Origin: Selaginella moellendorffii
Taxonomy: Eukaryota; Plantae; Lycopodiophyta
Length of the DNA stretch: 48,640 nucleotides
Reading direction: 5' to 3'
Assembly: GCF_000143415.4 (NCBI RefSeq)
Contig: NW_003314302.1
Location: 211,810-260,449, forward strand
Shown: positions 9,159-38,066 of the stretch, one piece after another
How positions within the stretch are numbered: the stretch's first letter is position 1
Layout of the letters: the number at the start of each line of letters is the position of its first letter
Notes under the pieces: generated by a model
Databases searched by the model: none
Told to the model about the DNA's origin: nothing
What the model saw: the letters and a program-made list of their open reading frames with translations, nothing else
Program-made: the position numbers and the translations under genes

Positions 9159-9184
9159 ATATTGTCTTCCAATCTTTACACTGG

Positions 9185-10763: not shown

Positions 10764-11501
10764 TCACACTTCAATCTCACTATATTTCACAATTTCACAA
10801 TCGCTAGTCGACTTAGCAGACCTTTCTGCGTGGAACCACTGGATCTTCCGCCCCTCGAGTTGGCGCCCTCTCCTGGCAAGCCCGTCCGCTACATTATTCT
10901 CATATACCTTGTCGTGCGCCTTGACTTTGCACAGCCGGATCTCCATCCCGCTCTTTGCTGCCGCACCAACGATGCACTGCAGGAGCGGCTTGAGCTGGAT
11001 GCAGTCGGGGTGCTCAGGCCGGCACTGCGCAAACTGTAACAGCTTCAGCGATTGCAAACTGTCCGTGTAGATATTCAGCTTGTTGGACTGCCAGTAACCT
11101 CGAGCCCTGTACAGCTGCACTGCCGCGATGGAGTCGTGTATCGCAAGAAGCTCCATGTTGAGTGAAGACACGATGAGGCTGTCGACGATAGGGTTCCCGT
11201 TTTTGCACCAGCCGTTCTCCTGCGGGACTTGCACCGCCATGCCCGTCCCTTTGTGGGACTCCTCTGCCGACGGGAAGTAGACGCCGTACCCTGCCGAGAG
11301 CGACTCTTTATCGAAGGAACCATCAGTGAATACATTCCAAGGAGAAGATGCTTTTATTTCATCAAGTCCTCGCTCACGAGTACAAATGGTAATGGCCCAT
11401 TTCTGCCATGGCTTTCCTAATCTGACTCCTACACCACCACACACCTTCTTGTTCGCGACGCACGCTTCATCCTCGCCAGCTTTGCGCTTGAGAGCCATCA
11501 T
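10764..11501 (-). CDS. Stand-alone ribonuclease H (RNase HI-type) protein, 245 aa, copy 1
   Basis: Motifs FTDGS, AGYGVYF, NMELLAI, IYTDS, KVKAH, NNVADGLARRG give D-E-D-H-D; intronless; basic N-terminus. Confidence 0.9.
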   Translation of the reverse strand: MMALKRKAGEDEACVANKKVCGGVGVRLGKPWQKWAITICTRERGLDEIKASSPWNVFTDGSFDKESLSAGYGVYFPSAEESHKGTGMAVQVPQENGWCKNGNPIVDSLIVSSLNMELLAIHDSIAAVQLYRARGYWQSNKLNIYTDSLQSLKLLQFAQCRPEHPDCIQLKPLLQCIVGAAAKSGMEIRLCKVKAHDKVYENNVADGLARRGRQLEGRKIQWFHAERSAKSTSDCEIVKYSEIEV

Positions 11502-11732
11502 CTTGTGCGTCTCGGAAGATTACCCTAAGTTTTGGGGCCCCAATTTCCACATGTATAGGTGGCTTTGGTCGTACGAAAACATTTTCTTACAAAGTAGATG
11601 CGAACTCGCCACCCTGGAGAATCAGATGAAGAAAAGCAAAAAACATCCTGCACTTGTCCAGCCAAAGATGGATTGATCGATTAGCAAACTATGACAGCAA
11701 CAACAATGAAAAAGTGAAAAGAGGCATTTTCT

Positions 11733-12925
11733 TCACTGGATGAAAGCCTTCCACTGTAGTGTCCCTTTTCGCAGCCTCTCGGGAACAGCCTGAGACCACT
11801 GTGTGAGATTGGGGAGGGGACCCGTGAAAGCCATCTTGTTATTCACTTGATCAAGCTTCCGCCAGTTCACCTGCTGTTCCTTCAACTCGTAAGCGCTTTA
11901 AGTATTAGGAAATGGAGAAAGAAAAAGTCTTACCTCGCCTGGAAATGCCTTTGACATCGCATAAAGAACATGGTTCTCGCCCGTAATTGTGGACTGTAGA
12001 GTTTCATCATCGTCATGTCCACGTCTTTGCTCTTCCACGCAGTTGATCATGATCCGGCCCCCGGGTCTCAGTCTTTTCCTGAGCTTAAACCATGTCTCTG
12101 CCTGGAAGGAAGAATCAGGAAAAGATATCAGTGATCTGATGCTCCGCAGAGACTAAAACTCGTTTCTCACCTCCTTGAGAACTGGCAGAACATCGCCATT
12201 TGAGAACAAATCCACGACAATGCCTGTAGAAAAGTGAGGTCGAAAGATTAACAAAAAAAAGAGAGGTTGCACCGAGCTACCTGCGAATCCACCCTTGGGA
12301 TCATTTGCATCCGAGAGAGCATCGTCGATGTGAATTGTAAGCCCTCCACCGTGTTTGTTTTTGCCTTCTAACTCCGACAAGCCGAGAAAATCCCTTGCCT
12401 TGTCAATTAGCTGCAAGCTTCAACGACGTAAGAGTTTGCATTGACGGTGTCAAAGAGTTACTCACGATCTCATCAATTTCCCAGCCTATCAATTCTCGCT
12501 TCGGCCACAAGTGGAGCAGCAATCGTGCAGCAGTACCACCGCCCTGATGATCAAACACAGAAAAACCAGGAAAGCTAGGAAGAAATCGAAAAGCTCTTAC
12601 CAGTCCTAGAATTGCAATGGGACCTCTGGGAATGATCGGTGGAAGCGAGGAGAACTCGTCCTTCAATCACACAAAGTAGTCATAACTCCTTCCTCAAGAA
12701 CGGAAGTTGTTTATCCAGTATGACCCGACCCACACAGAATCCTCCTTGTAAATACTATGAACATTTCCTACATTGGGACGTAAAGCTCTCTCAATCACCA
12801 CAAAAAGAACCAAATGATCTATAGATGAGAGAGATTGCTCACCTGTTTGATCCAGCAGCAGCAATCTAGCTCCCGCGAATTCACTGGGCGAATCCCTGGG
12901 CACCTCGAGAATCGCAATGGCGTTG

Positions 12926-12978
<53 letters not shown>

Positions 12979-13077
12979 GAGGTCACGACGGTGGGAGCGG
13001 CCGCGGTGGCCTCCAAATCCTCCTCCGTCCATTGCTCCACCGAGAAATCTCTCTTCCTCTTGGACGAGGACGTGGCA
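11733..13077 (-). pseudogene. SAM-methyltransferase-like pseudogene, copy 1
   Basis: Mirror of 15717-17001; lacks the first ~42 codons; (ATG)17 insertion with frameshift; intron-2 donor GT>AT. Confidence 0.87.
12926..12978. repeat. (TCA)17 / (ATG)17 microsatellite
   Basis: Perfect trinucleotide run. Confidence 0.97.
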
Positions 13078-13123
13078 GTATCATCCTCCCAAACTGAACA
13101 CCTTAAATAGACAGGAAAATATA

Positions 13124-13197
13124 TAGCCTATGAATGTTTCGAACCTGAGACCTTGGCATTATTAACAACATGCTCTGACCAACTGAGCTAATAGGCC
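13124..13197 (-). pseudogene. Degenerate full-length tRNA-Ile(AAT)
   Basis: 74-nt copy of 15460-15533 with substitutions in the anticodon, T and acceptor stems. Confidence 0.83.
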
Positions 13198-13250
13198 TTA
13201 AACATTAAGTGATTTATCTATATACTTGTTCATCCTTTTATCCTTTTATT

Positions 13251-13370
13251 AGACAAATGCGTCTGCCGGATCTTGGTGTGGCTCCAAGTGCTGGAAGTCA
13301 CTCATTGAGGATGCCACTCACTGGAGAAGCTTGCCGCAGTTGCATGAGTCGTGGTCTGTAGACAATAGTG
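13251..13370 (+). pseudogene. F-box gene 5' fragment (inverted copy)
   Basis: Encodes CVCRILVWL..WKSLIEDATHWRSLPQLHESW, matching 15190-15340 with an internal deletion. Confidence 0.85.
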
Positions 13371-13522
13371 AGCTGACAAAACAGGAAGCCCTAATGTCTA
13401 TGTGGTGACCCCAAACTGAAGCCACTCACCAAACCAAATTTATCGCATAGGAGCTGAAACTGGTGTGACCCCAACAGCTTGGTGAGAAGGTTGGCAGGCA
13501 TGTCCTCTGTCCCGAGATGTAT
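13371..13522 (-). mobile_element. Ty1/copia RNase H C-terminal fragment
   Basis: Reverse complement of 35317-35466 (HLGTEDMPANLLTK). Confidence 0.8.
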
Positions 13523-14224: not shown

Positions 14225-15406
14225 CTATGGTTTTATGTTTCTATGAGGCCGATAAAAAAGTATAGGCTTTGAAAATAAATCTGGTGTGAGCGTGAAGGCC
14301 GTCTTATAGTTATACTTGCTGCAGATACTCCATGAATTATTCTTGAAGAAGAAGGCCATCGGTGGAGAGACTGATAACATACTTGGTCGCACAACAACGG
14401 AATGCTTGATAACAAAATACTCAAACTCAAGACAGCCATTCTTCACCAAGTCACCCATGTAAACCTCACTCAAAAGTTTCCAATCTGTTGTCTCCATATT
14501 GAGTTCCCATGCAGCAGCAGACACCTTATAACCACCACTTATAGTTGACGAAACAAGAATCCACCTCCCATTGTAATCTACAATACAAGGCAGCCCACAA
14601 CAGAAAAGATTGCTTGGAAACTTCACCTTGACCCTGTCATAGCAACCTGAAACCTGATCAAACACAGCCACGTAAAGAAGATCAACCCGACCACCGGTGA
14701 TCTTTAGCGACTGCCTGTTAGGTGATGCAAACATACTGGATCCGAGCCATGGTCCCTTGTCATCCGCAGCGAGATCATCAATGCTCTTCTTGCTTGTAAA
14801 CTGGCAGCGCCGCCACTGCCTACTGAGCGAATTGAATAGCCAGTAGTGATCAAAATCTGCAAGGAGAAACACCAGGACCTTGAAGTACCCTGTGCATGAA
14901 TCCACAAGCAGTTTCCCCTCTTTCCTCGAGACCTCGTTCACCGGGAGCTTGGGGAGGCGACACCACTTCCCGGTGATCGGATTCCCAACCATGTAATAGG
15001 GAAGGTGGTGTCTCTGGAGATTCACAAAATAGCCACACACCAGGCCGCAGGACGAGTCGGCAAATATCCTAAACCTGCAGCGTCCTTCACCCCAAGGACC
15101 TCTATTCTTCAAGCGCAAGGGCAAATTAAGATGGCGAGCCCTGTGGGGAGAATTACTAGTTGCCAAGATACGACAGAGAACGGAACTGTTGTCTACAAAC
15201 CACGACTCATGCAACCGCGGCAAGCTTCTCCAGCGAGTGGCATCCTCAATGAGTGACTTCCAGCGCTTGCATACAAGCTTGCAGCGGACAAGGTCTGGAA
15301 TGGGGAGCCATGCCAAGATCCGGCAGACGCACTCGTCAGGTAGCTCCTCACACTCGAAACTCTCAGGAAACAAAAAGGCGAGGCAAACGCGCAGCCCGGC
15401 CAACAT
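14225..15406 (-). CDS. F-box protein (intronless, ~393 aa from first ATG)
   Basis: F-box motif ELPDECVCRILAWLPIPDLVRCKLVCKRWKSLI; plant F-box-associated motifs SSCGLVC and VGNPITGKWCRLP. Confidence 0.9.
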   Translation of the reverse strand: MLAGLRVCLAFLFPESFECEELPDECVCRILAWLPIPDLVRCKLVCKRWKSLIEDATRWRSLPRLHESWFVDNSSVLCRILATSNSPHRARHLNLPLRLKNRGPWGEGRCRFRIFADSSCGLVCGYFVNLQRHHLPYYMVGNPITGKWCRLPKLPVNEVSRKEGKLLVDSCTGYFKVLVFLLADFDHYWLFNSLSRQWRRCQFTSKKSIDDLAADDKGPWLGSSMFASPNRQSLKITGGRVDLLYVAVFDQVSGCYDRVKVKFPSNLFCCGLPCIVDYNGRWILVSSTISGGYKVSAAAWELNMETTDWKLLSEVYMGDLVKNGCLEFEYFVIKHSVVVRPSMLSVSPPMAFFFKNNSWSICSKYNYKTAFTLTPDLFSKPILFYRPHRNIKP

Positions 15407-15459
15407 CTCGAAGCAAAACAAGGCCTTTTCCCTTTCCTCGTTAAATAGAGACGAAGATA

Positions 15460-15533
15460 TGGCCTATGCAGGTTTCGAACCTGCGACCTTGGCGTTATTA
15501 GCACCACGCTCTGACCAACTGAGCTAATAGGCC
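15460..15533 (-). tRNA. tRNA-Ile(AAT), intact
   Basis: GGCCTATTAGCTCAGTTGGTCAGAGCGTGGTGCTAATAACGCCAAGGTCGCAGGTTCGAAACCTGCATAGGCCA folds into a cloverleaf, anticodon AAT. Confidence 0.95.
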
Positions 15534-15591: not shown

Positions 15592-17001
15592 ATGGCCGAG
15601 CTTCACTTGCCCGTGCTCGATCTTCTTCTCGTTAGGTCTAATCCACTTGTATTGCGATGCTCGCCGGCGATTCCAGTCGCAGCGCCCAGATGCCGCATTG
15701 CCCGTCTTGCCGCCAATGCCACGTCCTCGTCCAAGAGGAAGAGAGATTTCTCGGTGGAGCAATGGACGGAGGAGGATTTGGAGGCCACCGCGGCCGCTCC
15801 CACCGTCGTGACCTCGATGATGAGCTTCTACAACGCCATTGCGATTCTCGAGGTGCCCAGGGATTCGCCCAGTGAATTCGCGGGAGCTAGATTGCTGCTG
15901 CTGGATCAAACAGGTGAGCAATCTCTCTCATCTATAGATCATTTGGTTCTTTTTGTGGTGATTGAGAGTGCCAATGTAGGAAATGTTCATAGTATTTACA
16001 AGGAGGATTCTGTGTGGGTCGGGTCATACTGGGTAAACAACTTCCGTTCTTGAGGAGTGAAAAGAGCTATGACTTCTTTGTGTGATTGAAGGACGAGTTC
16101 TCCTCGCTTCCACCGATCATTCCCAGAGGTCCCATTGCAATTCTAGGACTGGTAAGAGCTTTACGATTTCTTCCTAGCTTTCTCTGTGTTTGATCATCAG
16201 GGCGGTGGTACTGCTGCACGATTGCTGCTCCACTTGTGGCCGGAGCGAGAATTGATAGGCTGGGAAATTGATGAGATCGTGAGTAACTCTTTGACACCGT
16301 CAATGCAAACTCTTACGTCGTTGAAGCTTGCAGCTAATTGACAAGGCAAGGGATTATCTCGGCTTGTCGGAGTTAGAAGGCAAAAACAAACACGGTGGAG
16401 GGCTTACAATTCACATCGACGATGCTCTCTCGGATGCAAATGATCCCAAGGGTGGATTCGCAGGTAGCTCGGTGCAACCTCTCTTTTTTCTGTTAATCTT
16501 TCGACCTCAGGCATTGTCGTGGATTTGTTCTCAAATGGCGATGTTCTGCCAGTTCTCAAGGAGGTGAGAAACGAGTTTTAGTCTCTGCGGAGCATCAGAT
16601 CACTGATATCTTTTCCTGATTCTTCCTTCCAGGCAGAGACATGGTTTAAGCTCAGGAAAAGACTGAGACCCGGGGGCCGGATCATGATCAACTGCGTGGA
16701 AGAGCAAAGACGTGGACATGACGATGATGAAACTCTACAGTCCACAATTACGGGCGAGAACCATGTTCTTTATGCGATGTCAAAGGCATTTCCAGGCGAG
16801 GTAAGACTTTTTCTTTCTCCATTTCCTAATACTTAAAGCGCTTACGAGTTGAAGGAACAGCAGGTGAACTGGCGGAAGCTTGATCAAGTGAATAACAAGA
16901 TGGCTTTCACGGGTCCCCTCCCCAATCTCACACAGTGGTCTCAGGCTGTTCCCGAGAGGCTGCGAAAAGGGACACTACAGTGGAAGGCTTTCATCCAGTG
17001 A
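15592..17001 (+). CDS. SAM-dependent methyltransferase-superfamily (spermidine-synthase-like fold) protein, 8 exons, ~333 aa, possible plastid transit peptide
   Basis: Exons 15592-15913, 15980-16032, 16092-16151, 16201-16278, 16334-16463, 16511-16563, 16633-16800, 16864-17001 join in frame (1002 nt) across GT-AG introns; motifs AILGLGGG, GWEIDE, IVVDLF, LRPGGRIMIN. Confidence 0.87.
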
Positions 17002-17232
17002 AGAAAATGCCTCTTTTCACTTTTTCATTGTTGTTGCTGTCATAGTTTGCTAATCGATCAATCCATCTTTGGCTGGACAAGTGCAGGATGTTTTTTGCTT
17101 TTCTTCATCTGATTCTCCAGGGTGGCGAGTTCACATCTACCTCGTACGAAAATGTTTTCGTACAACCAAAGCCACCTATACATGTGGAAATTGGGGCCCC
17201 AAAACTTAGGGTAATCTTCCGAGACGCACAAG

Positions 17233-17970
17233 ATGATGGCTCTCAAGCGCAAAGCTGGCGAGGATGAAGCGTGCGTCGCGAACAAGAAGGTGTGTGGTGG
17301 TGTAGGAGTCAGATTAGGAAAGCCATGGCAGAAATGGGCCATTACCATTTGTACTCGTGAGCGAGGACTTGATGAAATAAAAGCATCTTCTCCTTGGAAT
17401 GTATTCACTGATGGATCCTTCGATAAAGAGTCGCTCTCGGCAGGGTACGGCGTCTACTTCCCGTCGGCAGAGGAGTCCCACAAAGGGACGGGCATGGCGG
17501 TGCAAGTCCCGCAGGAGAACGGCTGGTGCAAAAACGGGAACCCTATCGTCGACAGCCTCATCGTGTCTTCGCTCAACATGGAGCTTCTTGCGATACACGA
17601 CTCCATCGCGGCAGTGCAGCTGTACAAGGCTCAAGGTTACTGGCAGTCCAACAAGCTGAATATCTACACGGACAGTTTGCAGTCGCTGAAGCTGTTGCAG
17701 TTTGCGCAGTGCCGGCCTGAGCACCCCGACTGCATCCAGCTCAAGCCGCTCCTGCAGTGCATCGTTGGTGCGGCAGCAAAGAGCGGGATGGAGATCCGGC
17801 TGTGCAAAGTCAAGGCGCACGACAAGGTATATGAGAATAATGTAGCGGACGGGCTTGCCAGGAGAGGGCGCCAACTCGAGGGGCGGAAGATCCAGTGGTT
17901 CCACGCAGAAAGGTCTGCTAAGTCGACCAGCGATTGTGAAATTGTGAAATATAGTGAGATTGAAGTGTGA
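17233..17970 (+). CDS. Stand-alone ribonuclease H protein, 245 aa, copy 2
   Basis: Same D-E-D-H-D motifs; 2 aa differences from copy 1. Confidence 0.9.
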   Translation: MMALKRKAGEDEACVANKKVCGGVGVRLGKPWQKWAITICTRERGLDEIKASSPWNVFTDGSFDKESLSAGYGVYFPSAEESHKGTGMAVQVPQENGWCKNGNPIVDSLIVSSLNMELLAIHDSIAAVQLYKAQGYWQSNKLNIYTDSLQSLKLLQFAQCRPEHPDCIQLKPLLQCIVGAAAKSGMEIRLCKVKAHDKVYENNVADGLARRGRQLEGRKIQWFHAERSAKSTSDCEIVKYSEIEV

Positions 17971-18230
17971 TACATTAAGCTATTTCTCCCTTTTTCTTGA
18001 AAAGGCTTGTTAATTACCAATGTTTACAAACAACAGTTAATTTTAAATTACGAGAAAAATATTTTGCCCATAGCTTTTATTTTATCCTGAATTTTGTTAG
18101 CTCAATTTGGAGGAGGTAAATGTTAGTAAATAACATTTGTTTTGCTTGTTAACTATTTATAAATTAATAACTTTTTCTTTCCCTTTTTTTGAAAAGGTTA
18201 CCAAACAATAGTTAACTCTAAATTGTGAAT

Positions 18231-18294
18231 TGGCCCATGCAGGTTTCGAACCTGTGTATTAGCACCACGCTCTGACCAGCTGAGCTAATAGGCC
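18231..18294 (-). pseudogene. tRNA-Ile(AAT) pseudogene with 10-nt internal deletion
   Basis: Matches 15460-15533 but lacks accttggcgt. Confidence 0.85.
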
Positions 18295-18357
18295 TTAAAC
18301 AATCAAGGATGATTGGAATGGAATCAGATTTAGAATTTAAGAGCGCAAGGTAATCAG

Positions 18358-18430
18358 CGCGCTGGACAGGGTTCGAACCTGTGACTTTCTGCTCCAGAAA
18401 TAGATGCTTTATCCAGTGAGCTACAAGTGC
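18358..18430 (-). pseudogene. tRNA-Arg-derived pseudogene (anticodon CTG)
   Basis: Mirror of 10300-10372, with an extra D-loop change. Confidence 0.78.
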
Positions 18431-18768
18431 TTTACATGTCATTTATTTGTTAAATTTTTATTTAGTTAACACAAAGAGCAAAAGATACAAAATTTTTATA
18501 TATTCATATTATTCTTGTCTTATGAAGGTGTTATTTGCAAAGCAATGTGACAGATAATTTACTATAGATGATAGATAATAGTATACAGGTGGAATATATT
18601 GAAATGAGTTCAAAAGAATGTAATGATTATGATAGATCCTAGGATAAAATCACTATTACTTTTCATATAATAATATATTAATAATGACACATGTTTGAGG
18701 TGACATTTCTTTTCATTTTAACTCAGAATACTTTACATGATAAGTTTAAGCATGTTTTTGAATCTGGT

Positions 18769-19362
18769 TGTAAGCCATAAATTTTTCTTTTCCAAATTGT
18801 TAGCTTACCTTCTATCTGACCATCACAGCCTTGGCCTTAATTAAGTTCTCTTGCCAAAGTTCCTACCTATTATAACAACTCCTATTTGGTCATACTTGAT
18901 TTTAGTAATTCACTACACAAATAACAAAGTGTTAGCCGTCCATCCACAAATTCGCAAATTCTTTCCTAATCTCCCCCTCAGGTTAAACTGGACTTAAAGT
19001 TTAGTTACACTCCCTGCATGCACAAGTAGCCATGCATACTATGCCTCTAGGTTTTTAACATCCCTTGGTACAACAAGATTTAATCATGAGATATTTTAAA
19101 TCCCAAGCCTTGGGTGTAGCATTTGCTTTAGGACACCATAGGGAAACACCATGGCTTAATGGCCCGGTATGGGTATGGCCTGTGGATGGATGGCTAACAT
19201 TTTATTGTTTGTGAAGTGAGTTGTTGAAATTAAGTAGAAATAAGTAGGAGTTGGTACAATAGATAGGAATTTTAGCAAGGGAATTTAACTAAGGCCAAGG
19301 CTGTGATGGTCGAATAAACGAGATAAACTAGCAAATTGGAAAGGAAAAATTTATGGTTTACA
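18769..19362. mobile_element. Foldback TGT...ACA element, mirror copy with more complete TIRs
   Basis: tgtaagccataaatttttc ... gaaaaatttatggtttaca; flanks CTGGT / CTAGT (mutated TSD). Confidence 0.8.
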
Positions 19363-19388
19363 CTAGTGTAAAGATTGGAAGACAATAT

Positions 19389-22300
19389 TGTCGCGAATGT
19401 GACTTTGGGTATTAAAAGTTACCTGTTGGCTAGTCTTTATGGATACTCTTTCCTTACTACCATAATGGCAGGAGGTCAGTATTATTAAACCCTTTATTAG
19501 TCCCTCTTGTTCAAGTGTTAGTAAACTGGACTTTACATTTATACTTGGCCGGATGAGCATAAAGATAGAATTCTTAAGTGTTTATTTGGCCAAGCATACT
19601 TGGCCCGGCCTTTTAGTTTTCTTTTGCTCTATCTTGCATTAGCTTGATAAGAACCCTCACGTATTGAAACTAGTTCCTCAATATCGTTGAATGATAGCTT
19701 ACCGTGTTTGCCAAACACCTTTGTTATCATGCTTTTTGTGTTAGTTTCATTTCGGTCCCAAATGTTATTTATGGAAAGTGTCTAGATTTGCTCATTTGGT
19801 CTACGGAATGTAGAGATTAGCCTGAACACATTGGTGTTCGTCTCGTGTCCAAATTTGTAATCTATAAACATTCCATATTTAATAAGTTTCAAACTTGTTC
19901 CAGAAACTAACTCCTGATACTAAGGGAGGCTTGGGGTGAAAACCCAAAGTGTGTGTTCCTCAAGGGGGGGGGGATATGGGGGGTTCCAAATGTATAGTAG
20001 GGATAGCAGGTAGGTTGGGCATGGGTAACCAACTTGAGGCATAATTTAGCCACCAGTTGTTTGGCTTTGTTTTGCATATTGGTCCTAGCATTAAGATGCT
20101 GGTTGCTCTAGGACTATTCTAAGTCGCTCTGGGCTCCTATTGCTTTGTTCCTTGGGCTGTATGCTCGGGAGTCATTCCATGCTCTAGTGGGTGCTATCCT
20201 ATGGTAAATCACTATAGTGATTTACCATGTACGTTACATTTGGTAACGTATATTACATTTGGTATCAGAGAATGAATCTTAGCCAGTACTATCCAATAAA
20301 ATTGGGTAACTAGTCTCATTGTATAAGTAGAGATGAAAACGATGATCCAAGTGGGTACATGTTTGGATATAAAGACTTCGCATTGGTTTCTTGGGTATAA
20401 ATTTGGTTACCTTTTTGTACCGTATTATATGAGTTTGCTCTTGAGCTCATAAGATGGATGTGAGATGTTCCATTAGTAGGAGTTTGTGCTTGGGCTTATG
20501 AGTGAGGCACATTAGCAACTCAAGGTTACACTTTGAGTTGGCAGGATTAATGTTAGCCTATCAATGGTTCCATGAATTGTTCTTTGTACCATAGGTGAAA
20601 GTAAACCTTTCCTGGGTTTGCTATGAGTGGCAAATAAGTTGGTCCATAGCTGTTTAGCATAGTATTAGTGGATCCTTCCTAGGTATGATTATGAGTGGAT
20701 CAATCAAGATTGGGATTAGTCTATTGATTTAAGTAATCATTGCCGTGCTCTCTTATAAACTTTTTTTGGATTGGACTGAAAGCAGTGCAAATGTAAGCTT
20801 GAGGTTAAGTCAAAGTTAGGACTGAAAAGAGAGTTATCAGGGACGAAGGATCAAATACGTAAATCATTTTCTCTTCTTGAAGAAATGATTTGCAATGAGG
20901 TGTTAACTCATTGCTCATGTTCACATTATGCAATCAAGAGTCCCTACCTTGGTGCATATTGGAAATGATGGTCTTACAAATGGTGAGTTGTGGGATGGAT
21001 AGTAGTGAAATGCTAAACTATTTTATCTAGGCTCGCTATTAAAAGACTTGGATTACAATGCTCAATTCTTTTCCGGGGAACCTTGCTATTGCTCTTTGAG
21101 TAGCTTGGTGTTGGATTAGTTTTGAGTTTGGTAGGAAAGAGAGTGGCATGAACTTGTCCATATTGTGAATAAAAATTAGTGGTGTTGGGTGTTGTAAATC
21201 TCTATCAGTGAAGTGTGGCATTTATGTTGCATTTTGTCGAATCGAGTTGGCACTTCATAGTCACATAAACCTTTGAGGTAATGACATGAGTGTTTCTCGT
21301 GGTATTGCTCAACTGATGATTAAGTCATTATGATTTCTATATCATATCCATGTGATAGTGAGTAATGCATTTACGAAGTTGCTTGGTTAAATGATAATTA
21401 ACCCCAAAGTGGTTGATAGTGAAGCTAACCTACTTGCACATAATAGCATTGTAGTAGCTTTTATTGGATTCTCAATGGTGATCCATTATGCTAAGCTTAA
21501 GTTGGTACCTTGTTTCCTTGAAAGTTTGCCTATTAAGTGTTAGAAAAGGTTATAGCATTCATTTGCTATATCTCATCAGTTGATCCGTTAACACTTGGAG
21601 TAGATTGTTGGATGGAGAAAATGTGTAGTTAAAGCATTGATATTGCTAGCACTTGTGTTAGTGGAAATGGCATTTTTGTTCAAGTGATAAGGAATTTTCC
21701 TTAGAGCTCGATTTTCCATGTCATTTTTTTTGTTAGTGTTTTCATCTTATATTATATCTTGAAAGTGGTTGAAGAAGAGTGTTAATGCAATGTGAATATT
21801 CAAAAATGTGGTCTTTATGATCAAACCTTGGATGTTCATTTTGCATTTTGTAAATGTCGGTGTTAGATGTTGGAAATATAGGCAAAATTTTCGATGTTGA
21901 AGCATACTATGGCTCTTGAGAACTTGTGTTGAGGTGAACATATGTGAAGTTGTTGGTAGGAGGAAGTTAGTTGAGTCTTGAATGTTTGTATTCCTAGACT
22001 GAGAGTCATTCTTTCTCTAGGATGGAAAATTTTCCACAAATTTTCTTAGATTTTTTCAATGGTTGATCTATTGATCACTTTACTCAAAAACCTTTCCATT
22101 TTTGTAAGCTGATACAAACTAGTGAAGGGGTTAGAGTTGACTTCAATTGTCTTAGATCTTAGTAAGTAGTTTGTATGATGCGCCCGAAAGGGATGTTGAC
22201 TTTTGGGGCTAAGGCAATTGAGTTGGATAGAGTCTGGAGTTGGTGTAGAAAAGTGGCCGTTATGCTTTTCTAAGAAAGGTGACCTTTGTGCCTTTCTTCT

Positions 22301-22662
22301 ATAGCGTTTTGCTTGGTGGCAGGTTGCACTTTGCATTTCATTACAGTTTATAAGGGTAGTGAGCTCTCACTGATCCTGATTTAGTCTTGGTAGCCCTGTG
22401 CCTTAGCTGAAGATGGTGATGTCCAACTTAGTTGTTTGAGGTTGAGATGTTAGTACCTATACTATAGCTTTGTCTATGGGGAGGTTGTGTATTAATATGA
22501 GTCCATCTTATGGTCTTCACTTTAGTTTTAACTGAGTGTTGATCATGCACAGCTAGCCTCTTCAAGGCATGCTTAGAGCTGTTGGCTAAAGGCATTAGTG
22601 AGCTTATTACAGTTAAGTTGGATTTGAGTGGTCATTTAGTTCATGCTTGTCTATGAGCCAAT
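19389..22662 (+). mobile_element. Family-A LTR element, duplicated copy: 5' LTR 19389-20257, PBS 20260-20270, internal region
   Basis: Reverse complement of 5277-9158 with deletions and without the MITE; same flank junction. Confidence 0.87.
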
Positions 22663-23666
22663 TGTAGGCGACTAAATTATCCATTCTACTTTAGTCACTT
22701 AACCACACCTCCGACCACTTGGAGGAGTCTCATTCACAACCTCCATAAGTCCAACTAGGACTTGGGACTTGCTAGCCCCGAGAATGGCATCCATGCCACT
22801 CAACATTTGCACTTGGTCCAAGTGCTCCACGTGTCCGATCCCATGACCGACACTCAAAGGTACCACCGACATGCCAGCCCGTTACACTAAGGCCATGCCC
22901 AATCACCTTTGCCACACTGGTAGTCCATTACCACTTGCATCACAGTCTTGGCTCTCCAAGACTAGGCAAACCATCCGTGAGTGGTCATCTGAGATCCACT
23001 CCTTAGCACCCTTAGGATGCCCACCGACAAGGGGAATAGCCTTCCCCAATATCCCTCTGTCAGTCCCCACTAAGTCCCTTTCTGCCCCTGGCCATGTTTG
23101 CCAACACTGCCACTGGATCGAGACCCACAGGCCCGACCACCAAGTCCCACGGTCCTCTAGGACTTCCTCACCACACGACTGTGTCCTTGGTCACTACCCC
23201 AGAGGACTGCTCCTCTTCCTTTCCACAGTCTGGGCCTTTGGGGCAACATTTCGGAACACCGTGGCCTTACGCGAGCCACCTGGGTACTCTCCTTGCCTTC
23301 TGCCCTTAGGTGCTCTAGCCATGGGCTTAGAGCGAGGTTCCGTTGAGCCACGCCTGGTATCCAAGTAGGTAGTGCCACCCACACTTGGACTGGGAGCATC
23401 GGCCAGTCGATCTCCCGGGGGAACTAGAGCCGGCTCTTGAACACTTCACCAAGCTACCCCGCTTGTCGGTCCGTATTCACTCTAGTCTTGGACTTCCCAG
23501 TGGTCAGTTCATCACCCAACACTGGGTCTGGCCTTCCTGGGCCAAACTGGCCTTTCCTGGCCAAACTGGCTCCACTACAGTCCTCCCCCTTACTATACTT
23601 TTGGAGGTCACCAAACCCCCCAGGGTCTGGGAGACGAATGCTTTGGGCTTTCACCCTCTCAGGCTC

Positions 23667-27200: not shown

Positions 27201-29546
27201 GGGTATATCCGACTTCTCTATGCTATTAAGAAGTCTTGGGTAGCTACTTTCTACCCATTTAACCAGTTATTTTGCACCTCTTGCTTAGTTGCCTCATAGT
27301 TGTTAAGTCCTATAACTCATTGCTTGGTGCTTTCACACCTCCATCATTATCTGGGTCACCACACTCCAACTGCATGCTCTGCAGCTTAGGCTATGCTATT
27401 CCCATTTCCATTGGGATTCTTTTGGCAAGGGGTTCTCATGAACCCACCAACATAGCCTCAAGGTATCACACCTTGGCACATTTGGTGTCTCCACACCATC
27501 GGCTCCACGAGCCTACCTCTATGACACTTTCCCTTCGTGTCTAAGTCTTTGCCAAGACCAACACCGCCCTTTCTCATGCCAACCATCCGTTAGCACTACA
27601 CCATAGAGGTCACACACAACTTTGTGTCAAAGTTGTTTTCTTTTGGGAACACCTTTCCCATAACTTTAGCATGGCACATTTTGCCATCGATGAGATACCC
27701 TCTGTTCTCATCCTTGGATCCTATGATCCCCCCCAATCCTTTGTGGGGTACAACACACCTCAGTCCAAATGCTTCCATCAGTCCTTTTAGGACCATCCCT
27801 TGACTCTACTTGAGTCATCCAGCAGTTTTGGACTTGGTTAATCCACAGACCCTTAAGGTCCTACTTGTGAGGCACTAGCTCACTGGAATACACTTCTTGC
27901 ATTCCTGTCCTACTCAAAAGGACTATTTTCACAAGTGTTACTCCGACACTTGATTTTGTTCTCTGGGGGCAACTTTTGCCCCTTAGGACTACTTGTCCAT
28001 GCGATGAGAATACCACTCATCTCTAAGTACACCCCCAACTCCTTGGGTTGTTCCAGCATTTATTAAAGGTAGCCCCGACTACCATTTCAAGGACTTGAGT
28101 CCTCTTCCGTATTTGACCTCCCACGGTCATTACTTCTGGTCTCACATTCATGAGCACCAACCTCAACTATATGAGGATAATTTTGTGACTCCTTTATTGC
28201 TTTGGAGTCTTTATCTTTCCCGTGATCCCAACTGTAGTTGTTTACCACAACTACATTAGCCAGTTTGCTAAGTCAAACGCTCATCTGGATCACATCCTCA
28301 ACTCAATGAGGGAAACTTTGCACTGTTCCCAAGATCCCAAAGTCGTTCCATTATTGGCCCCTTTTCTATCCACCACCTTGTCTACAAGTTCACACATGAA
28401 CTGTAATGGAGAGCCATGTCTTCCCGACCTGCTACTCCTCAAGGATAGGCCCACTTCTCGGACCTTCCGTTGCCAACACCAGTGGTGATATACTTGAGCA
28501 CCAATAAAAGTCGGACTAAGGAACAGCTCCGATACCAAATTGTAAGCGACTAATTTTTCCATTCTACTTTAGTCACTTAACCACACCTCCGACCACTTGG
28601 AGGAGTCTCATTCACAACCTCCATAAGTCCAATCCAGGACTTGGGACTTGCTAGCCCCGAGAATGGCATCCATGCGACTCAACATTTGCACTTGGTCCAA
28701 GTGCTCCACGTGTCCGATCCCATGACCGACACTCAAAGGTACCACCGACATGCCAGCCCGTTATGCTAAGGCCATGCCCAATCACCTTTGCCACACTAGT
28801 AGTCCATTACCACTTGCATCACAGTCTTGGCTCTCCAAGACTAGGCAAACCATCCGTGAGTGGTCATCTGAGATCCACTCCTTAGCACCCTTAGGATGCC
28901 CACCGACAAGGGGAATAGCCTTCCCCAATATCCCTCTGTCAGTCCCCACTAAGTCCCTTTCTGCCCCTGGCCATGTTTGCCAACACTACCACTGGATCGA
29001 GACCCACAGGCCCGACCACCAAGTCCCACGGTCCTCTGGGACTTCCTCACCACACGACTGTGTCCTTGGTCACTACCCCAGAGGACTGCTCCTCTTCCTT
29101 TCCACAGTCTGGGCCTTTGGGGCAACATTTCGGAACACCGTGGCCTTACGCGAGCCACCTGAGTACTCTCCTCGCCTTTTGCCCTTAGGTGCTCTAGCCA
29201 TGGGCTTAGAGCGAGGTTCCGTTGAGCCACGCCTGGTATCCAAGTAGGTAGTGCCACCCACACTTGGACTGGGAGCATCGGCCAGTCGATCTCCCGGGGG
29301 AACTAGAGCCGGCTCTTGAACACTTCACCAAGCTACCCCGCTTGTCGGTCCGTATTCACTCTAGTCTTGGACTTCCCAGTGGTCAGTTCATCACCCAACA
29401 CTGGGTCTGGCCTTCCTGGGCCAAACTGGCCTTTCCTAGCCAAACTGGCTCCATTACAGTCCTCCCCCTTACTATACTTTTGGAGCTCACCAAACCCCCC
29501 AGGGTCTGGGAGACGAACGCTTTGGGCTTTCACCCTCTCAGGCTCC

Positions 29547-29996
29547 GGACTCACTCGGACTCGGACTCGGACTCGGATTCGGACTCGGACTCGGGCTCGG
29601 GCTCGGTCTCGGCCTCGGCCTCGGTCTCGGTCTCGGTCCCGATCTCGGTCTCGGTCTCGGTCTCGATCCCGGTCTCGGTCCCGGTCTCGGTCCCAGTCTC
29701 GGTCTCGACTTCGGACTCCATCTCGGACTCCATCTCGGACTCCATCTCGGACTCCATTTCGGGTCCATCTCGGACTCCATCTCGGGTCCATCTCGGACTC
29801 CATCTCGGACTCCATCTCAGACTCCATCTCGGGTCCATCTCGGACTCCACTTCGGACTCCAACTCGGGTCCATCTCGGGTCCACCTCGGACTCCACTTCG
29901 GACTCCAACTCGGGTCCATCTCGGACTCCACTTCGGACTCCAACTCGGGTCCATCTCGGACTCCACTTCGGACTCCAACTCGAGTCCATCTCAGAC
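29547..29996. repeat. Shorter version of the same array in the second LTR
   Basis: Same units, ~160 bp shorter. Confidence 0.95.
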
Positions 29997-30227
29997 ACTC
30001 CCACGTGTCATGTGTTGGTCCTTTTGGGTCCCTTTTTGGAGCCTCGCCTTTTGCTCGCTTCGTGCTCGTTCCTCGAGCACTTCGTTGGGAGTTCCACTCC
30101 CGCTCTTGACTTTTCAAGTCGGAGCTTTTGGTCCAAACGTGTTACGCTCGTTTGGCTCTCGCTTCGGCCACTACCATGTGGCGCCCTTCCGGCTCCACTT
30201 TGGGGCCTAGGGATTTTGTGTCTCACA

Positions 30228-31073
30228 CCAATATCTTGTATATGGAGTATTATGTTCATATTGGACAAGCATATGGCTTGATAGCATGAGTTTAGTGTTT
30301 AGGTCTTGTGAAGGCAACTTGAAGAGTGATTGTTGGTTGCTTTGTAACTAGTGATTGCTTATAAATTTTGTCAAAGACTGTTTGACACTTGCTTCACTCG
30401 ATGATGATTTAGTAGTGATGGGTTTGTTTTACCGGATGGTGTTACGGAAGATTGTGTTGTTAAACTTATATGAGTTTTTCATGTTGGCATGTCGACTCTA
30501 CCTCTATCGATATCATTTGGTTGCGTTTAGTCTGTGGCATTAGATTTCATTGAGTCTTGGATGTGGTGAATCACTCCTTGATGATGTGTTATTTGTAACT
30601 AAATTTTATTGAAGAATTAATGTCAAATATTAACTAAAGTATCTTTGACTTTGGTTAGCTTGGCCGGTAGAAAGCTTTGAGTGGTGAATCACTCTTGCTT
30701 TTTTTTTAGCTTTGTTATGGTGTTGATGGCATTGAAGTGATGCCTTGTTATTGACAATATTGATGTTGAGATTTGAGTGAAATGACATGTCTCTCCTTAA
30801 GATTGATATTGAGTTTCATTAGTCTCAATGAAAATAGTATTGATGATTTGGTTGTAGCTTTGTGTTATTGGCAACCGTGCATTTGCTAATTAGCAATTGT
30901 ATTGACATTCAAATGAACTAAGTGGCAAGTTGAGTTAGTTATATTTTAGACGAGATTGCTTGGTCGAGGTTGAGCTTTGAGCTTTTCTTTGAAAAATGAT
31001 TCAATTGTGGACTATGCTAACTTTATGAGAGGAAGAGTTAGTAATTGATATTGAAGTGATTGAATCCTTGTTG
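30228..31073 (+). mobile_element. Continuation of family-A internal region, truncated at ~31073
   Basis: Reverse complement of 4437-5281. Confidence 0.85.
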
Positions 31074-35466: not shown

Positions 35467-35488
35467 AGCCCAGTGCTCTTTGATCCTC

Positions 35489-35639
35489 ACTATTGTCTAG
35501 AGACCACAACTCATGCAACTGCAGCTTCTCCAGTGAGTGGCATCCTCAATGAGTGACTTCCAGCACTTGCATACAACCTTGCAGTAGACAAGGTCTGGAA
35601 TGGGGAGCCACACCAAGATCCAGCAGACGCACTTGTCTG
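35489..35639 (-). pseudogene. F-box gene 5' fragment, copy 3
   Basis: Direct similarity to 15188-15340. Confidence 0.85.
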
Positions 35640-35700
35640 ATAAAAGGATAAAAGGATGAACAAAACTCTTGAGTATATAGATAAATCACTTAATGTTTAA

Positions 35701-35774
35701 GGTCTATTAGCTCAGTTGGTCAGAGCATGTTGTTAATAATGTCAAGGTCTCAGGTTCGAAACATTCATAGGCTA
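35701..35774 (+). pseudogene. Degenerate tRNA-Ile(AAT), copy 3
   Basis: Shares the substitutions of 13124-13197 plus two more. Confidence 0.83.
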
Positions 35775-35833
35775 TATATTTTCCTCTCTATTTAAGGTGT
35801 TCAGTTTGGGAGGACGAGGGCGAAGTAGGATAC

Positions 35834-37105
35834 TGCCACGTCCTCGTCCAAGAGGAAGAGAGATTTCTCGGTGGAGCAATGGACGGAGGAGGATTTGGAG
35901 GCCACCGCGGCCGCTCCCACCGTCGTGACCTCGATGATGAGCCTCTACAACGCCATTGCGATTCTCGAGGTGCCCAGGGATTCGCCCAGTGAATTCGCGG
36001 GAGCTAGATTGCTGCTGCTGGATCAAACACTCTCATCTATAGATCATTTGGTTCTTTTTGTGGTGATTGAGAGAGTTTTACGTCCCAATGTAGGAAATGT
36101 TCATAGTATTTACAAGGAGGATTCTGTGTGGGTCGGGTCATACTGGATAAACAACTTCCGTTCTTGAGGAAGGAGTTATGACTACTTTGTGTGATTGAAG
36201 GACGAGTTCTCCTCGCTTCCACCGATCATTCCCAGAGGTCCCATTGCAATTCTAGGACTGGTAAGAGCTTTTCGATTTCTTCCTAGCTTTCCTGGTTTTT
36301 CTGTGTTTGATCATCAGGGCGGTGGTACTGCTGCACGATTGCTGCTCCACTTGTGGCCGGAGCGAGAATTGATAGGCTTGGAAATTGATGAGATCGTGAG
36401 TAACTCTTTGACACCGTCAATGCAAACTCTTACGTCGTTGAAGCTTGCAGCTAATTGACAAGGCAAGGGATTATCTCGGCTTGTCGAAAACAAACACGGT
36501 GGAGGGCTTACAATTCACATCGACGATGCTCTCTCGGATGCAGATGATCCCAAGGGTGGATTCGCAGGTAGCTCGGTGCAACCTCTCTTTTTTTTGTTAA
36601 TCTTTCGACCTCAGGCATTGTCGTGGATTTGTTCTCAAATGGCGATGTTCTGCCAGTTCTCAAGGAGGTGAGAAACGAGTTGTAGTCTCTGCGGAGCATC
36701 AGATCACTGATATCTTTTCCTGATTCTTCCTTCTAGGCAGAGACATGGTTTAAGCTCAGGAAAAGACTGAGCCCCGGGGGCCGGATCATGATCAACTGCG
36801 TAGAAGAGCAAAGACATGGACATGACGATGATGAAACTCTTGAGTCCACAATTACGGGCGAGAACCATGTTCTTTATGCGATGTCAAAGGCATTTCCAGG
36901 CGAGGTAAGATTTTTTTTTTCTCCATTTCCTAATACTTAAAGCGCTTACGAGTTGAAGGAATCGCAGGTGAACTGGCGGAAGCTTGATCAAGTGAATAAC
37001 AAAATTGCTTTCACGGGTCCCCTCCCCAATCTCACACAGTGGTCTCAGGCTGTTCCCGAGAGGCTGCGAAAAGGGACACTACAGTGGAAGTTTTTCATCC
37101 AGTGA
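35834..37105 (+). pseudogene. SAM-methyltransferase-like pseudogene, copy 3
   Basis: Same 5' truncation and intron-2 GT>AT as copy 1; intron-1 donor deleted; 13-nt deletion in exon 5. Confidence 0.87.
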
Positions 37106-37328
37106 AGAAAATGCTTCCTTTCACTTTTTCATTGTTGTTGCTGCCATAGTTTGCTAATCGATCAATCCATCTTTGGCTGGACAAGTGCAGTTTTTTTTGC
37201 TTTTCTTCATCAGTTTCTCCAGTGGATTGCATCTAGTACGAAAACGTTTTCGTACGACCAAAGCCACGCAACCTTTTGAGCCGAAATTGAGGCCCAAAAA
37301 CTTAGGGTAATCTTCCGAGACGCACAAG

Positions 37329-38066
37329 ATGATGGCTCTCAAGCGCAAAGCGGGCGAGGATGAAGCGTGCATCGCGAACAAGAAGGTGTGTGGTGGTGTA
37401 GGAGTCAGATTAGGAAAGCCATGGCAGAAATGGGCCATTACCATTTGTACTCGTGAGCGAGGACTTGATGAAATAAAAGCATCTTCTCCTTGGAATGTAT
37501 TCACTGATGGATCCTTCGATAAAGAGTCGCTCTCGGCAGGGTACGGCGTCTACTTCCCGTCGGCAGAGGAGTCCCACAAAGGGACGGGCATGGCGGTGCA
37601 AGTCCCGCAGGAGAACGGCTGGTGCAAAAACGGGAACCCTATCGTCGACAGCCTCATCGTGTCTTCGCTCAACATGGAGCTTCTTGCGATACACGACTCC
37701 ATCGCGGCAGTGCAGCTGTACAAGGCTCAAGGTTACTGGCAGTCCAACAAGCTGAATATCTACACGGACAGTTTGCAGTCGCTGAAGCTGTTGCAGTTTG
37801 CGCAGTGCCGGCCTGAGCACCCCGACTGCATCCAGCTCAAGCCGCTCCTGCAGTGCATCGTTGGTGCGGCAGCAAAGAGCGGGATGGAGATCCGGCTGTG
37901 CAAAGTCAAGGCGCACGACAAGGTATATGAGAATAATGTAGCGGACGGGCTCGCCAAGAGAGGGCGCCAACTCGAGGGGCGGAAGATCCAATGGTTCCAC
38001 GTAGAAAGGTCTGCTAAGTCGACCAGCGATTGTGAAATTGTGAAATATAGTGAGATTAAAGTGTGA
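37329..38066 (+). CDS. Stand-alone ribonuclease H protein, 245 aa, copy 3
   Basis: Intact ORF, catalytic residues unchanged; 4 aa differences from copy 2. Confidence 0.9.
   Translation: MMALKRKAGEDEACIANKKVCGGVGVRLGKPWQKWAITICTRERGLDEIKASSPWNVFTDGSFDKESLSAGYGVYFPSAEESHKGTGMAVQVPQENGWCKNGNPIVDSLIVSSLNMELLAIHDSIAAVQLYKAQGYWQSNKLNIYTDSLQSLKLLQFAQCRPEHPDCIQLKPLLQCIVGAAAKSGMEIRLCKVKAHDKVYENNVADGLAKRGRQLEGRKIQWFHVERSAKSTSDCEIVKYSEIKV

What the first reader, a model, noticed from the sequence alone, without database searches (positions are those of the whole stretch)
10764..38066. Triplicated stand-alone RNase H gene kept intact while every cassette neighbour decays
Seen: three intronless 245-aa ORFs (10764-11501, 17233-17970, 37329-38066), all with D(TDGS)-E(MELL)-D(YTDS)-H(KAH)-D(VADG). 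There is no RT or integrase in frame, no recognisable hybrid-binding domain, and the N-terminus KRK-x10-KK resembles a bipartite NLS. In copies 1 and 3 the adjacent F-box, methyltransferase and tRNAs are all broken. By eye, copy 1 vs 2 differs at ~5 synonymous and 2 nonsynonymous sites, and copy 2 vs 3 at ~3 and 4. Known: the His-loop (KAH/KGH) signature is typical of fungal/animal/bacterial RNase H1 and some non-LTR elements, whereas canonical plant RNH1 proteins are archaeal-like. Inference: a domesticated or horizontally acquired, dosage-amplified RNA:DNA-hybrid nuclease, possibly acting on R-loops or restricting retroelements.
Basis: partly seen in the sequence, partly recalled or inferred. 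Interest (0 to 1): 0.82.

Follow-up and report, generated by a model that had tools for sequence, protein, structure and literature searches.

The report
Spikemoss solo RNase H gene family
Three intact, nearly identical copies of an intron-free RNase H gene lie in this likely spikemoss DNA; the gene was likely taken over long ago from a LINE retrotransposon and is predicted to cut RNA:DNA hybrids, but it is almost silent in the RNA samples checked, and the extra copies are likely young duplicates rather than a proven dosage adaptation.

Summary
The protein has a complete D-E-D-H-D site and an RNase H1 fold (Z 15.8). It is not the ordinary plant RNH1, which is Arg-type. Its only close relatives are three solo RNase H loci of Selaginella moellendorffii. 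In trees these group with LINE RNase H domains, nearest Dualen/RandI-like fragments (modest support). Bacterial, giant-virus-like and cellular-RNase-H1-like sisters were rejected by AU tests. The headline is overstated. In copy 2 the F-box ORF, tRNA-Ile and methyltransferase are intact, and the methyltransferase is spliced and expressed. In copies 1 and 3 these neighbours were cut at a shared duplication junction. RNase H got about 2 of 171 and 1 of 234 RNA reads laid. Constraint is real but modest: 8 synonymous and 6 replacement changes (P about 0.014, up to 0.11 with methylation bias), against 3 and 10 in dead neighbour exons. Copy 3 alone fits neutrality, and there are signs of gene conversion. 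Verdict: an apparently undescribed, likely LINE-derived solo RNase H family with variable copy number; dosage selection is not shown.

The parts
17233..17970 (+). RNase H copy 2, 245 aa, intronless; sits at the locus with intact neighbours (likely parent)
10764..11501 (-). RNase H copy 1, intact; in the left arm of an inverted duplication
37329..38066 (+). RNase H copy 3, intact; dispersed direct copy
15592..17001 (+). Intact 8-exon, 333-aa gene, spliced and expressed; SAM-dependent methyltransferase-like by its GLGGG/WEID motifs (label recalled; five single exons gave no Pfam hit)
14225..15406 (-). Intact intronless F-box ORF, 393 aa (expression not tested)
15460..15533 (-). Intact tRNA-Ile(AAT) gene
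11733..13077 (-). Copy 1 methyltransferase remnant: 5' end missing, 38-nt GAT-repeat frameshift (left boundary approximate)
35834..37105 (+). Copy 3 methyltransferase remnant: same 5' junction, 12-nt deletion across a splice donor, 13-nt exon deletion (right boundary approximate)
13103..13369 (.). Copy 1 junction: decayed tRNA-Ile copy and 85-bp F-box fragment, rearranged relative to the parent locus
35489..35795 (.). Copy 3 junction: 153-bp F-box fragment and inverted decayed tRNA-Ile copy; same junction type as copy 1
18231..18430 (-). Two degenerate tRNA remnants downstream of copy 2 (40.8 and 42.1 bits)
10300..10373 (+). Degenerate tRNA downstream of copy 1 (49.7 bits; ARAGORN reads anticodon CTG)
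4437..13077 (-). Left arm of the inverted duplication; outer part 84-92% identical to the right arm, core about 99%
15717..31073 (+). Right arm of the inverted duplication, interrupted by a younger LTR element
22663..30227 (.). Younger LTR element: TG...CA ends, 5-bp target duplication CCAAT, LTR blocks 98.3-99.5% identical, no long internal ORF

Best explanation
This is a small family of stand-alone, intron-free, His-type RNase H genes, found so far only in Selaginella, likely exapted long ago from the RNase H domain of a LINE retrotransposon (nearest: Dualen/RandI-like) and predicted to cut the RNA strand of RNA:DNA hybrids. Steps: (1) A LINE's RNase H domain lost its RT and endonuclease neighbours and gained a start codon and a host promoter (inferred from trees, lack of introns and lack of LINE remnants). 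(2) It has been kept under purifying selection: the catalytic residues persist across relatives only 31-41% identical (shown), with a synonymous excess among copies (shown, modest). (3) The locus of copy 2 was duplicated into TE-rich DNA; one rearranged derivative gave copies 1 and 3, truncating the F-box and methyltransferase at birth (junctions shown, order inferred). Conversion between copies likely keeps the core near 99% identical. (4) The 27-kDa protein would enter the nucleus by size or by its weak basic N-terminus and use two metal ions at D60/E117/D147/D206 with H196 (inferred from fold and known RNase H chemistry). It is expressed at a trace level in the samples seen (shown), so it likely acts in a narrow cell type or condition. 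My preferred target is retroelement RNA:cDNA intermediates and R-loops in TE-rich chromatin (about even odds against generic R-loop clean-up; untested). The extra copies are likely passengers more than a selected dose.
For: Fold: AlphaFold model pLDDT 77.7, best VIA-align match human RNase H1, Z 15.8, rmsd 2.4 over 138 residues. Family: the single-protein searches returned 1 hit of 257 candidates and 4 hits among 1.84 billion representatives; 3 of the 4 are S. moellendorffii proteins whose only Pfam family is RNase_H. Tree of 91 domains: window + 3 S. moellendorffii rows form a clade at 99/92, inside a starred 26-row clade (96/95) that otherwise holds LINE-type fragments, 7 unnamed solo RNase H rows and a few unassigned rows, and excludes the bacterial and giant-virus-like rows. 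Best outside scores for a Selaginella-only profile are P0110 (73) and P0111 (70), next 65; P0111 and P0020 are the 2 of 28 long proteins with both a zinc-knuckle and an RLE-like motif. Selection: 8S/6N in the ORF against 3S/10N in dead methyltransferase exons; 4 more ORF variants listed for another individual's DNA contigs are all synonymous. Conversion: core 0.99% (transversions 6 of 2126) against outer arm 7.7% (22 of 2324); sites 17275 and 17627 show all four allele pairs across copies 1-3 and the X1 contigs. Expression: methyltransferase bins 7-39x, RNase H bins 0-1.5x.
Against: The grouping with Dualen-like rows has only 83/80 support and is an open fork in the larger tree. AU tests did not reject sister status to I-group LINE rows (p 0.064), fungal LINE rows (0.067) or the unnamed solo family (0.18). 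No named Dualen and no plant archaeal-type sequence were in the tree; rows were gathered by similarity to the query. Domain-to-domain Fisher test for selection is p 0.12 on window data alone, and the binomial P rises to 0.05-0.11 under strong CG/CHG bias. The protein has no hybrid-binding domain and lacks the Trp/Lys-rich substrate-binding stretch seen in the E. coli-type alignments, so activity on its own is uncertain. Trace expression could also mean a gene on its way out in this species. DNA from another individual hints at more RNase H copies with the methyltransferase deleted, which favours the dosage rival.
Confidence: 0.52

Rival explanations
1. Selected dosage amplification: each extra copy is functional and kept by selection, while hitch-hiking neighbours are lost, as in a defence gene racing against retroelements.
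For: 0 indels in 738 ORF sites against 26 in 1952 other cassette sites. Copy 1 differs from copy 2 by 5S/2N, and both replacements are shared with another individual. In DNA run X1, single RNase H contigs have depth 84 against 11-23 for mid-methyltransferase contigs, and joints 15944 to 16893 show copies that drop 948 bp of the methyltransferase, a different lesion from copies 1 and 3 (the tool warns that depth is no copy number).
Against: Against comparable dead exons the indel deficit is 0 vs 3, P 0.16. Copy 3 alone is 3S/4N, P 0.18-0.53 under neutrality. Neighbours were truncated at duplication. All copies together gave about 2 of 171 and 1 of 234 laid RNA reads. Conversion can keep copies open.
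Confidence: 0.2
2. The ORF is still element property: cargo or a helper module of a mobile cassette (Helitron-like or non-autonomous retroelement), selected at the element level and supplying RNase H in trans to retroelements.
For: TE-rich setting, rearranged gene-fragment junctions typical of capture, several rearranged forms in X1, tRNA genes on both sides, and LINE affinity.
Against: No RT, endonuclease or zinc-knuckle remnant near any copy. Copy 2 sits 231 bp behind an expressed host gene. S. moellendorffii shows only 3 divergent clusters (5 sequences) in the protein collections. I saw no shared terminal repeats or target duplication around the cassette by inspection; no dedicated test was run.
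Confidence: 0.13
3. Horizontal acquisition of a cellular or viral His-type RNase HI from a bacterium, fungus or giant virus.
For: Intronless; His-type site as in bacterial and fungal enzymes; patchy distribution; an unnamed solo family (P0005 and relatives, host unknown) is about equally close.
Against: AU tests reject a clade with 6 bacterial-type rows (p 0.0066), 3 giant-virus-like rows (0.023), and 2 or 4 cellular-RNase-H1-like rows (0.029, 0.012) (groups labelled by me after seeing the tree, 34 of 91 rows, simple model). NCBIfam ribonuclease HI score 16.8 against cut-off 160. No close relative in prokaryote genomes (0 of 14 candidates) or viral contigs (0 of 2); these two scans find close relatives only.
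Confidence: 0.1
4. Part of the triplication is an assembly effect: copy 1 is an alternative haplotype placed in inverted orientation next to copy 2.
For: Adjacent inverted arms; copy-1-type alleles in the intron and ORF are carried by main contigs of another individual.
Against: Copy 1 has its own junction shared with copy 3 and lacks a working methyltransferase; outer arms differ by 7.7% and by a 7.5-kb insertion. X1 also hints at several copies.
Confidence: 0.05

Closest known systems
S. moellendorffii hypothetical proteins SELMODRAFT_413093/412538, 427944, 409945/414436
   Same: Only close relatives found (32-41% identity over matched stretches); RNase_H is the only Pfam family; same catalytic residues; one clade with the window protein (99/92).
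   Different: Lengths 195-911 aa with unrelated extensions; two carry stronger basic N-terminal runs. Their genomic context and expression could not be seen; names are automatic.
RNase H domain of Dualen/RandI-type LINEs
   Same: His-type site; best outside profile scores and nearest tree rows are fragments in which RNase H is followed by zinc-knuckle and RLE-like motifs. PMC4640811 (passages) lists Dualen/RandI among LINEs with RNase H and as encoding RLE.
   Different: Here the domain is alone, with its own start and stop and no RT, APE or RLE nearby. The Dualen label for P0020/P0110/P0111 is my inference from architecture.
Canonical plant RNH1 (archaeal-type; AtRNH1A/B/C, S. moellendorffii XP_002990328)
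   Same: Type 1 RNase H fold, DEDD core, plant nuclear gene; would act on the same substrate.
   Different: Canonical enzymes have Arg in place of His (PMC4408406 and PMC5348765 passages; supplement row) and a hybrid-binding domain (bioRxiv 10.1101/662080 passages). This one has His196, no such domain and no introns.
Fungal/animal RNase H1 and E. coli RNase HI (fmRNH subtype)
   Same: D-E-D-H-D site and fold (Z 15.8 to human RNase H1, 13.3 to E. coli).
   Different: About 21-23% identity; no hybrid-binding domain; extra predicted strands at residues 37-44, 219-227 and 235-244; not sister in AU tests.
'Individual' RNase H genes of oomycetes (aRNH 1 and 3)
   Same: RT-free, multi-copy RNase H sequences read by the authors as possible retrotransposon remnants (PMC5348765 passages): the same kind of phenomenon.
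   Different: Those are Arg-type and in oomycetes; function was left open there too.

Membership tests
Type 1 RNase H, His (fmRNH) subtype | DEDD catalytic core with His-loop | tested here: met
   D60, E117, D147, H196, D206 align across 10 rows and with E. coli-type enzymes through the profile
Type 1 RNase H, His (fmRNH) subtype | RNase H1 fold | tested here: met
   Model pLDDT 77.7; Z 15.8, rmsd 2.4 over 138 residues to human RNase H1
Type 1 RNase H, His (fmRNH) subtype | Cleaves RNA in RNA:DNA hybrids | not testable with these tools
   Needs an assay
Canonical plant RNH1 (archaeal-type) | Arg at the fifth active-site position | tested here: not met
   His196 in KAH; S. moellendorffii XP_002990328 has Arg
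Canonical plant RNH1 (archaeal-type) | N-terminal hybrid-binding domain | tested here: not met
   No PF01693 match at E up to 0.1; residues 1-31 have pLDDT under 50
Canonical plant RNH1 (archaeal-type) | Groups with plant RNH1 orthologs in a tree | not tested
   No plant archaeal-type sequence was available as a stored protein
Dualen/RandI LINE element | RNase H within a long ORF with APE, RT and RLE | tested here: not met
   ORF closed at 245 aa; tblastn with LINE proteins hits only the RNase H stretch
Dualen/RandI LINE element | RNase H domain descends from the Dualen-type domain | tested here: inconclusive
   Best tree joins them at 83/80, top outside profile scores; other LINE sisters not rejected
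Bacterial ribonuclease HI (NF001236) | Equivalog score and bacterial sister group | tested here: not met
   16.8 bits against cut-off 160; AU p 0.0066
Domesticated TE-derived host gene | Purifying selection on a stand-alone domain | tested here: met
   Modestly: 8S/6N, P 0.014 at measured transition bias, 0.05-0.11 under strong methylation bias; catalytic residues kept across distant paralogues
Domesticated TE-derived host gene | Expression as a host transcript | tested here: inconclusive
   Sense-strand trace only: about 2 and 1 reads in 12% of two runs; one 183-nt contig in a third
Domesticated TE-derived host gene | Fixed syntenic locus across species | not testable with these tools
   No genome held; no context for the S. 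moellendorffii genes

The most novel reading that the evidence does not exclude
Spikemosses exapted a LINE's own RNase H as a second, His-type nuclear RNase H family, alongside the canonical archaeal-type RNH1, and use it as a copy-number-variable restriction factor that destroys retroelement RNA:cDNA intermediates in dividing or spore-forming cells. The gene is amplified repeatedly and independently while its passengers are deleted, and an unnamed sister family suggests the same capture elsewhere.
Probability: 0.17. Interest if true: 0.8.

Novelty: new variant of a known kind. Interest (0 to 1): 0.47.

Why it matters
Land plants are described as using archaeal-type RNH1, and reported traffic of RNase H runs from host to retroelement (PMC4408406, PMC5348765 passages). 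A His-type solo family in Selaginella, likely from a LINE, would be a case of the reverse direction and a second hybrid nuclease in a plant lineage. It is cheap to test by rnhA complementation and hybrid cleavage. If it restricts retroelements it would bear on how small, TE-rich spikemoss genomes hold their elements in check. If the copies are passengers, what remains is a real but modest lineage-specific gene family.

Tried and rejected
No whole genome is held, so genome-wide copy count and synteny were not possible. phmmer of the single protein against PDB sequences gave 0 hits at E up to 1; the 10-row profile gave 57. The look-up of sequencing runs: no RNA holder listed among indexed runs; this blank is no evidence. 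F-box and tRNA-Ile expression was not measured. ESM Atlas gave only generic RNase H clusters for the window protein and P0005; no inference drawn. Viral contigs with alignment A1: 4 weak loci of 273 candidates, E 5e-6 or weaker. Metagenome scan with the unnamed solo family: 6 weak loci of 99 candidates, none a family member; L005 is a microbial-type RNase HI locus and L007 a full ORF1 + APE-RT-RNase H LINE by reading its ORFs. The host of the unnamed family stays unknown. Phage tblastn: 1 marginal hit, E 8e-3. Foldseek viral library: generic RNase H only. Whole-frame Pfam scans of flanks were not possible; 10 stop-free flank ORFs and 5 methyltransferase exons gave no hit above a curated cut-off, so flank TE labels rest on structure (LTRs, target duplication, primer-binding site) and recalled motifs. 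Bipartite NLS: not matched. Earlier scan findings: 3 look-ups, nothing. A resemblance between the N-terminal 'ICT' strand and an 'ILC' motif in P0110/P0111 was dropped because the spacing to the first Asp differs widely. Literature: 10 searches listed no title or abstract start describing this family; for only 12 of 59, 12 of 103, 8 of 19 and 15 of 19 papers were listed, and subscription papers are not covered. bioRxiv supplements were not seen and could list these proteins.

Full report
Observation. The window holds three ATG-to-stop ORFs of 245 aa at 10764-11501 (minus), 17233-17970 (plus) and 37329-38066 (plus). Pairwise changes are 5 synonymous/2 replacement (copies 1 and 2), 3/4 (2 and 3) and 8/6 (1 and 3), so copy 2 has no change of its own. 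Pfam RNase_H matches residues 56-213 at E 1.6e-9. The AlphaFold model from a 10-row alignment has pLDDT 77.7, a disordered N-terminus (1-31) and extra strands before and after the core. Its best structural matches are human RNase H1 (Z 15.8, rmsd 2.4, 138 residues), then retroviral, archaeal and E. coli enzymes. The host is likely a Selaginella species: the only close relatives are from S. moellendorffii and the neighbouring gene has 47-69 nt introns. This is inference; the window's proteins are not in the collection letter for letter.

The cassette. The locus of copy 2 reads F-box (minus, intact 393 aa), tRNA-Ile(AAT) (intact), a methyltransferase-like gene (15592-17001), a 231-bp spacer, RNase H, and two degenerate tRNAs. 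RNA reads show all seven introns of the methyltransferase spliced at GT..AG, giving an open 333-aa frame. Copies 1 and 3 begin at the same rearranged junction: a short F-box fragment and an inverted tRNA-Ile remnant joined into exon 1 at 15717. Their neighbours were therefore broken when the duplicate formed, and later lesions (a 38-nt GAT expansion in copy 1; 12- and 13-nt deletions in copy 3) hit sequence that was already dead. Copies 1 and 2 are arms of an inverted duplication that extends about 8 kb into an old LTR element; a younger LTR element with a CCAAT target duplication interrupts the right arm. The outer arm differs by 7.7% (157 transitions, 22 transversions in 2324 sites) and the core by 0.99% (15 and 6 in 2126). 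Methylation explains much of that gap, but transversions still differ about threefold, which suggests homogenisation of the core. Sites 17275 and 17627 show all four allele pairs among copies 1, 2, 3 and the main contigs of DNA run X1, if those two contigs of equal depth belong together; that also points to conversion.

Selection. With the transition bias measured in the non-RNase H parts of the cassette (46 transitions, 31 transversions, after leaving out three hard-to-align stretches), 26% of changes should be synonymous; 8 of 14 gives P 0.014, and 0.05-0.11 under strong CG/CHG bias. Dead methyltransferase exons give 3 synonymous and 10 replacement changes, leaving out 7 rows at the GAT junction; Fisher p is 0.12, or 0.029 when 4 further synonymous variants listed for X1 are added (42 variant rows were not shown). 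Copy 3 alone (3S/4N) fits neutrality. No indel falls in the ORF; against dead exons P is 0.16, against exons plus introns 0.039, against all other cassette DNA 0.0002, but the AT-rich flanks are a poor control. The chance of no stop among 14 substitutions is 0.55. All six replacements avoid catalytic residues and five are conservative. So the family is constrained, but selection on each extra copy is not shown.

Expression. Two raw RNA runs with the same species label as the best DNA holder were laid on 15600-18200, 12% of each run being read. Methyltransferase bins have depth 7-39. RNase H bins have 0-1.5: about 2 of 171 laid reads in X21 and 1 of 234 in X23, all in the sense direction, for all copies together. 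In X8 (another organism label, RNA judged by its spliced contig) a 183-nt RNase H contig has depth 3.6 against 173 for the methyltransferase, whose transcript runs to 17226, just before the RNase H start, so read-through is possible. Tissues are unknown, so narrow expression is not excluded. In DNA run X1, RNase H contigs have depth 84 against 11-23 for mid-methyltransferase contigs, and joints skip 948 bp of the methyltransferase. The tool warns that depth is no copy number; I take it as a hint of more copies with different breakpoints in another individual.

Relatives and origin. The single-protein searches gave 1 hit and 4 hits: three S. moellendorffii clusters (5 sequences) and P0005, the first of an unnamed solo RNase H family of 174-297 aa. 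From 204 stored domains, 91 were kept after a 62% identity filter. In the careful tree the four Selaginella rows form a clade (99/92) inside a starred 26-row clade (96/95) with the unnamed family (7 rows), six rows I labelled Dualen-like, seven long fungal-type LINE fragments and two unassigned long-branch rows; bacterial-type, giant-virus-like, cellular-RNase-H1-like and I-group-like rows lie outside (bootstrap not fully settled). L007, a complete APE-RT-RNase H ORF of similar make-up, supports reading the fungal-type rows as LINEs. On a 34-row subset, Selaginella joins the Dualen-like rows at 83/80. AU tests reject union with bacterial (p 0.0066), giant-virus-like (0.023) and cellular-RNase-H1-like rows (0.029, 0.012), but not with I-group (0.064), fungal LINE (0.067) or the unnamed family (0.18). 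Most group labels are mine, from size, domains and a few source names, and were set after seeing the tree. A Selaginella-only profile ranks P0110 and P0111 first outside the family (73 and 70 bits, next 65), and P0111 and P0020 are the only 2 of 28 long proteins with both zinc-knuckle and RLE-like motifs. PMC4640811 (passages) lists Dualen/RandI among LINEs with RNase H and says it encodes RLE; the other RLE case there, oomycete Utopia, is Arg-type with RNase H upstream of RT. A LINE origin is thus the best reading and Dualen the best guess within it.

Comparison with what is known. PMC4408406 and PMC5348765 (passages) define the His (fungi/metazoa) and Arg (archaeal, plant) subtypes and describe host-to-element capture. 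The supplement of the latter shows S. moellendorffii's canonical Arg-type enzyme, so this family is additional to it. bioRxiv 10.1101/662080 (passages) defined plant RNH1 by similarity to AtRNH1C plus a hybrid-binding domain, which would exclude these proteins. bioRxiv 10.1101/572842 (passages) did not include Selaginella, and PMC9409398 (passages) does not mention it in its main text. PMC8557442 (passages) mentions Dualen and Selaginella separately, not together. Smyshlyaev 2013 and Kojima and Fujiwara 2005 were not read. Ten searches listed nothing describing the family; coverage is limited to open-licence papers.

Mechanism and verdict. Shown: three intact copies, complete active site, fold, solo architecture, Selaginella-restricted close kin, modest constraint, trace expression, intact and expressed parent neighbours. 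Inferred: LINE origin, conversion, nuclear action on hybrids. Untested: catalysis and target. The lack of a hybrid-binding domain and of the Trp/Lys-rich stretch of E. coli-type enzymes leaves activity open; the extra strands and the 78-105 insertion (pI 8.5) might compensate. I favour a domesticated, narrowly expressed hybrid nuclease whose extra copies are mostly passengers (0.52), over selected dosage (0.2), element cargo (0.13), horizontal transfer (0.1) and a partial assembly effect (0.05). Novelty: new variant of a known kind. Interest 0.47.

Noticed in passing
window 17185-17232 and equivalents before copies 1 and 3: A GGCCC(A/C) element followed by TTAGGGT lies 20-45 bp before each start codon. 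It resembles the site II plus telo-box pair of genes active in cycling cells (PMC3022908 passages), but the telo box is inexact and only copy 3 has an exact site II. TTAGGGT occurs 4 times in the window, 3 of them here.
   Followed up: partly
P0005, P0007-P0013, P0091-P0099, P0104-P0105: An unnamed family of solo His-type RNase H proteins (about 170-300 aa, N-terminal IC motif, Ser/Pro-rich basic tail) from short public contigs; host unknown; possibly a second independent or related capture.
   Followed up: partly
window 2150-9500 (minus) and 19000-31073 (plus): Old decayed LTR element copied with the cassette; primer-binding-site-like CTCTGATACCA at 7745-7755 beside the LTR end (tRNA-Met type, recalled); its two LTRs are about 83% identical.
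   Followed up: partly
window 22663-30227: Recent LTR element with a 5-bp target duplication, LTRs containing long 6/12-bp tandem arrays and no long internal ORF; a 76-77% relative lies at about 40560-43077.
   Followed up: partly
window 38570-43849: A 5.3-kb insertion splits the downstream flank of copy 3; the flank resumes at 43850.
   Followed up: no
window 31821-35420 and 45456-48623: Two decayed copia-like elements about 80% identical (label from recalled RT/RNase H motifs); the tail of one is fused to the junction shared by copies 1 and 3.
   Followed up: no
window 10300-10373 and 18357-18430: ARAGORN calls these tRNA-Gln(CTG), but the body looks like a decayed tRNA-Arg (recalled resemblance); the copy 1 version scores higher than the copy 2 version.
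   Followed up: no
window 12926-12978: A perfect 17.7-copy TCA/GAT microsatellite expansion in the dead methyltransferase of copy 1 creates a spurious poly-Asp ORF (12694-13032).
   Followed up: yes
window 46106-46205: A 100-base run of N marks a scaffold gap.
   Followed up: no
L007 214-7557: A complete two-ORF LINE (629-aa ORF1, 1814-aa ORF2 with APE, RT and His-type RNase H by inspection) in a metagenome contig.
   Followed up: partly
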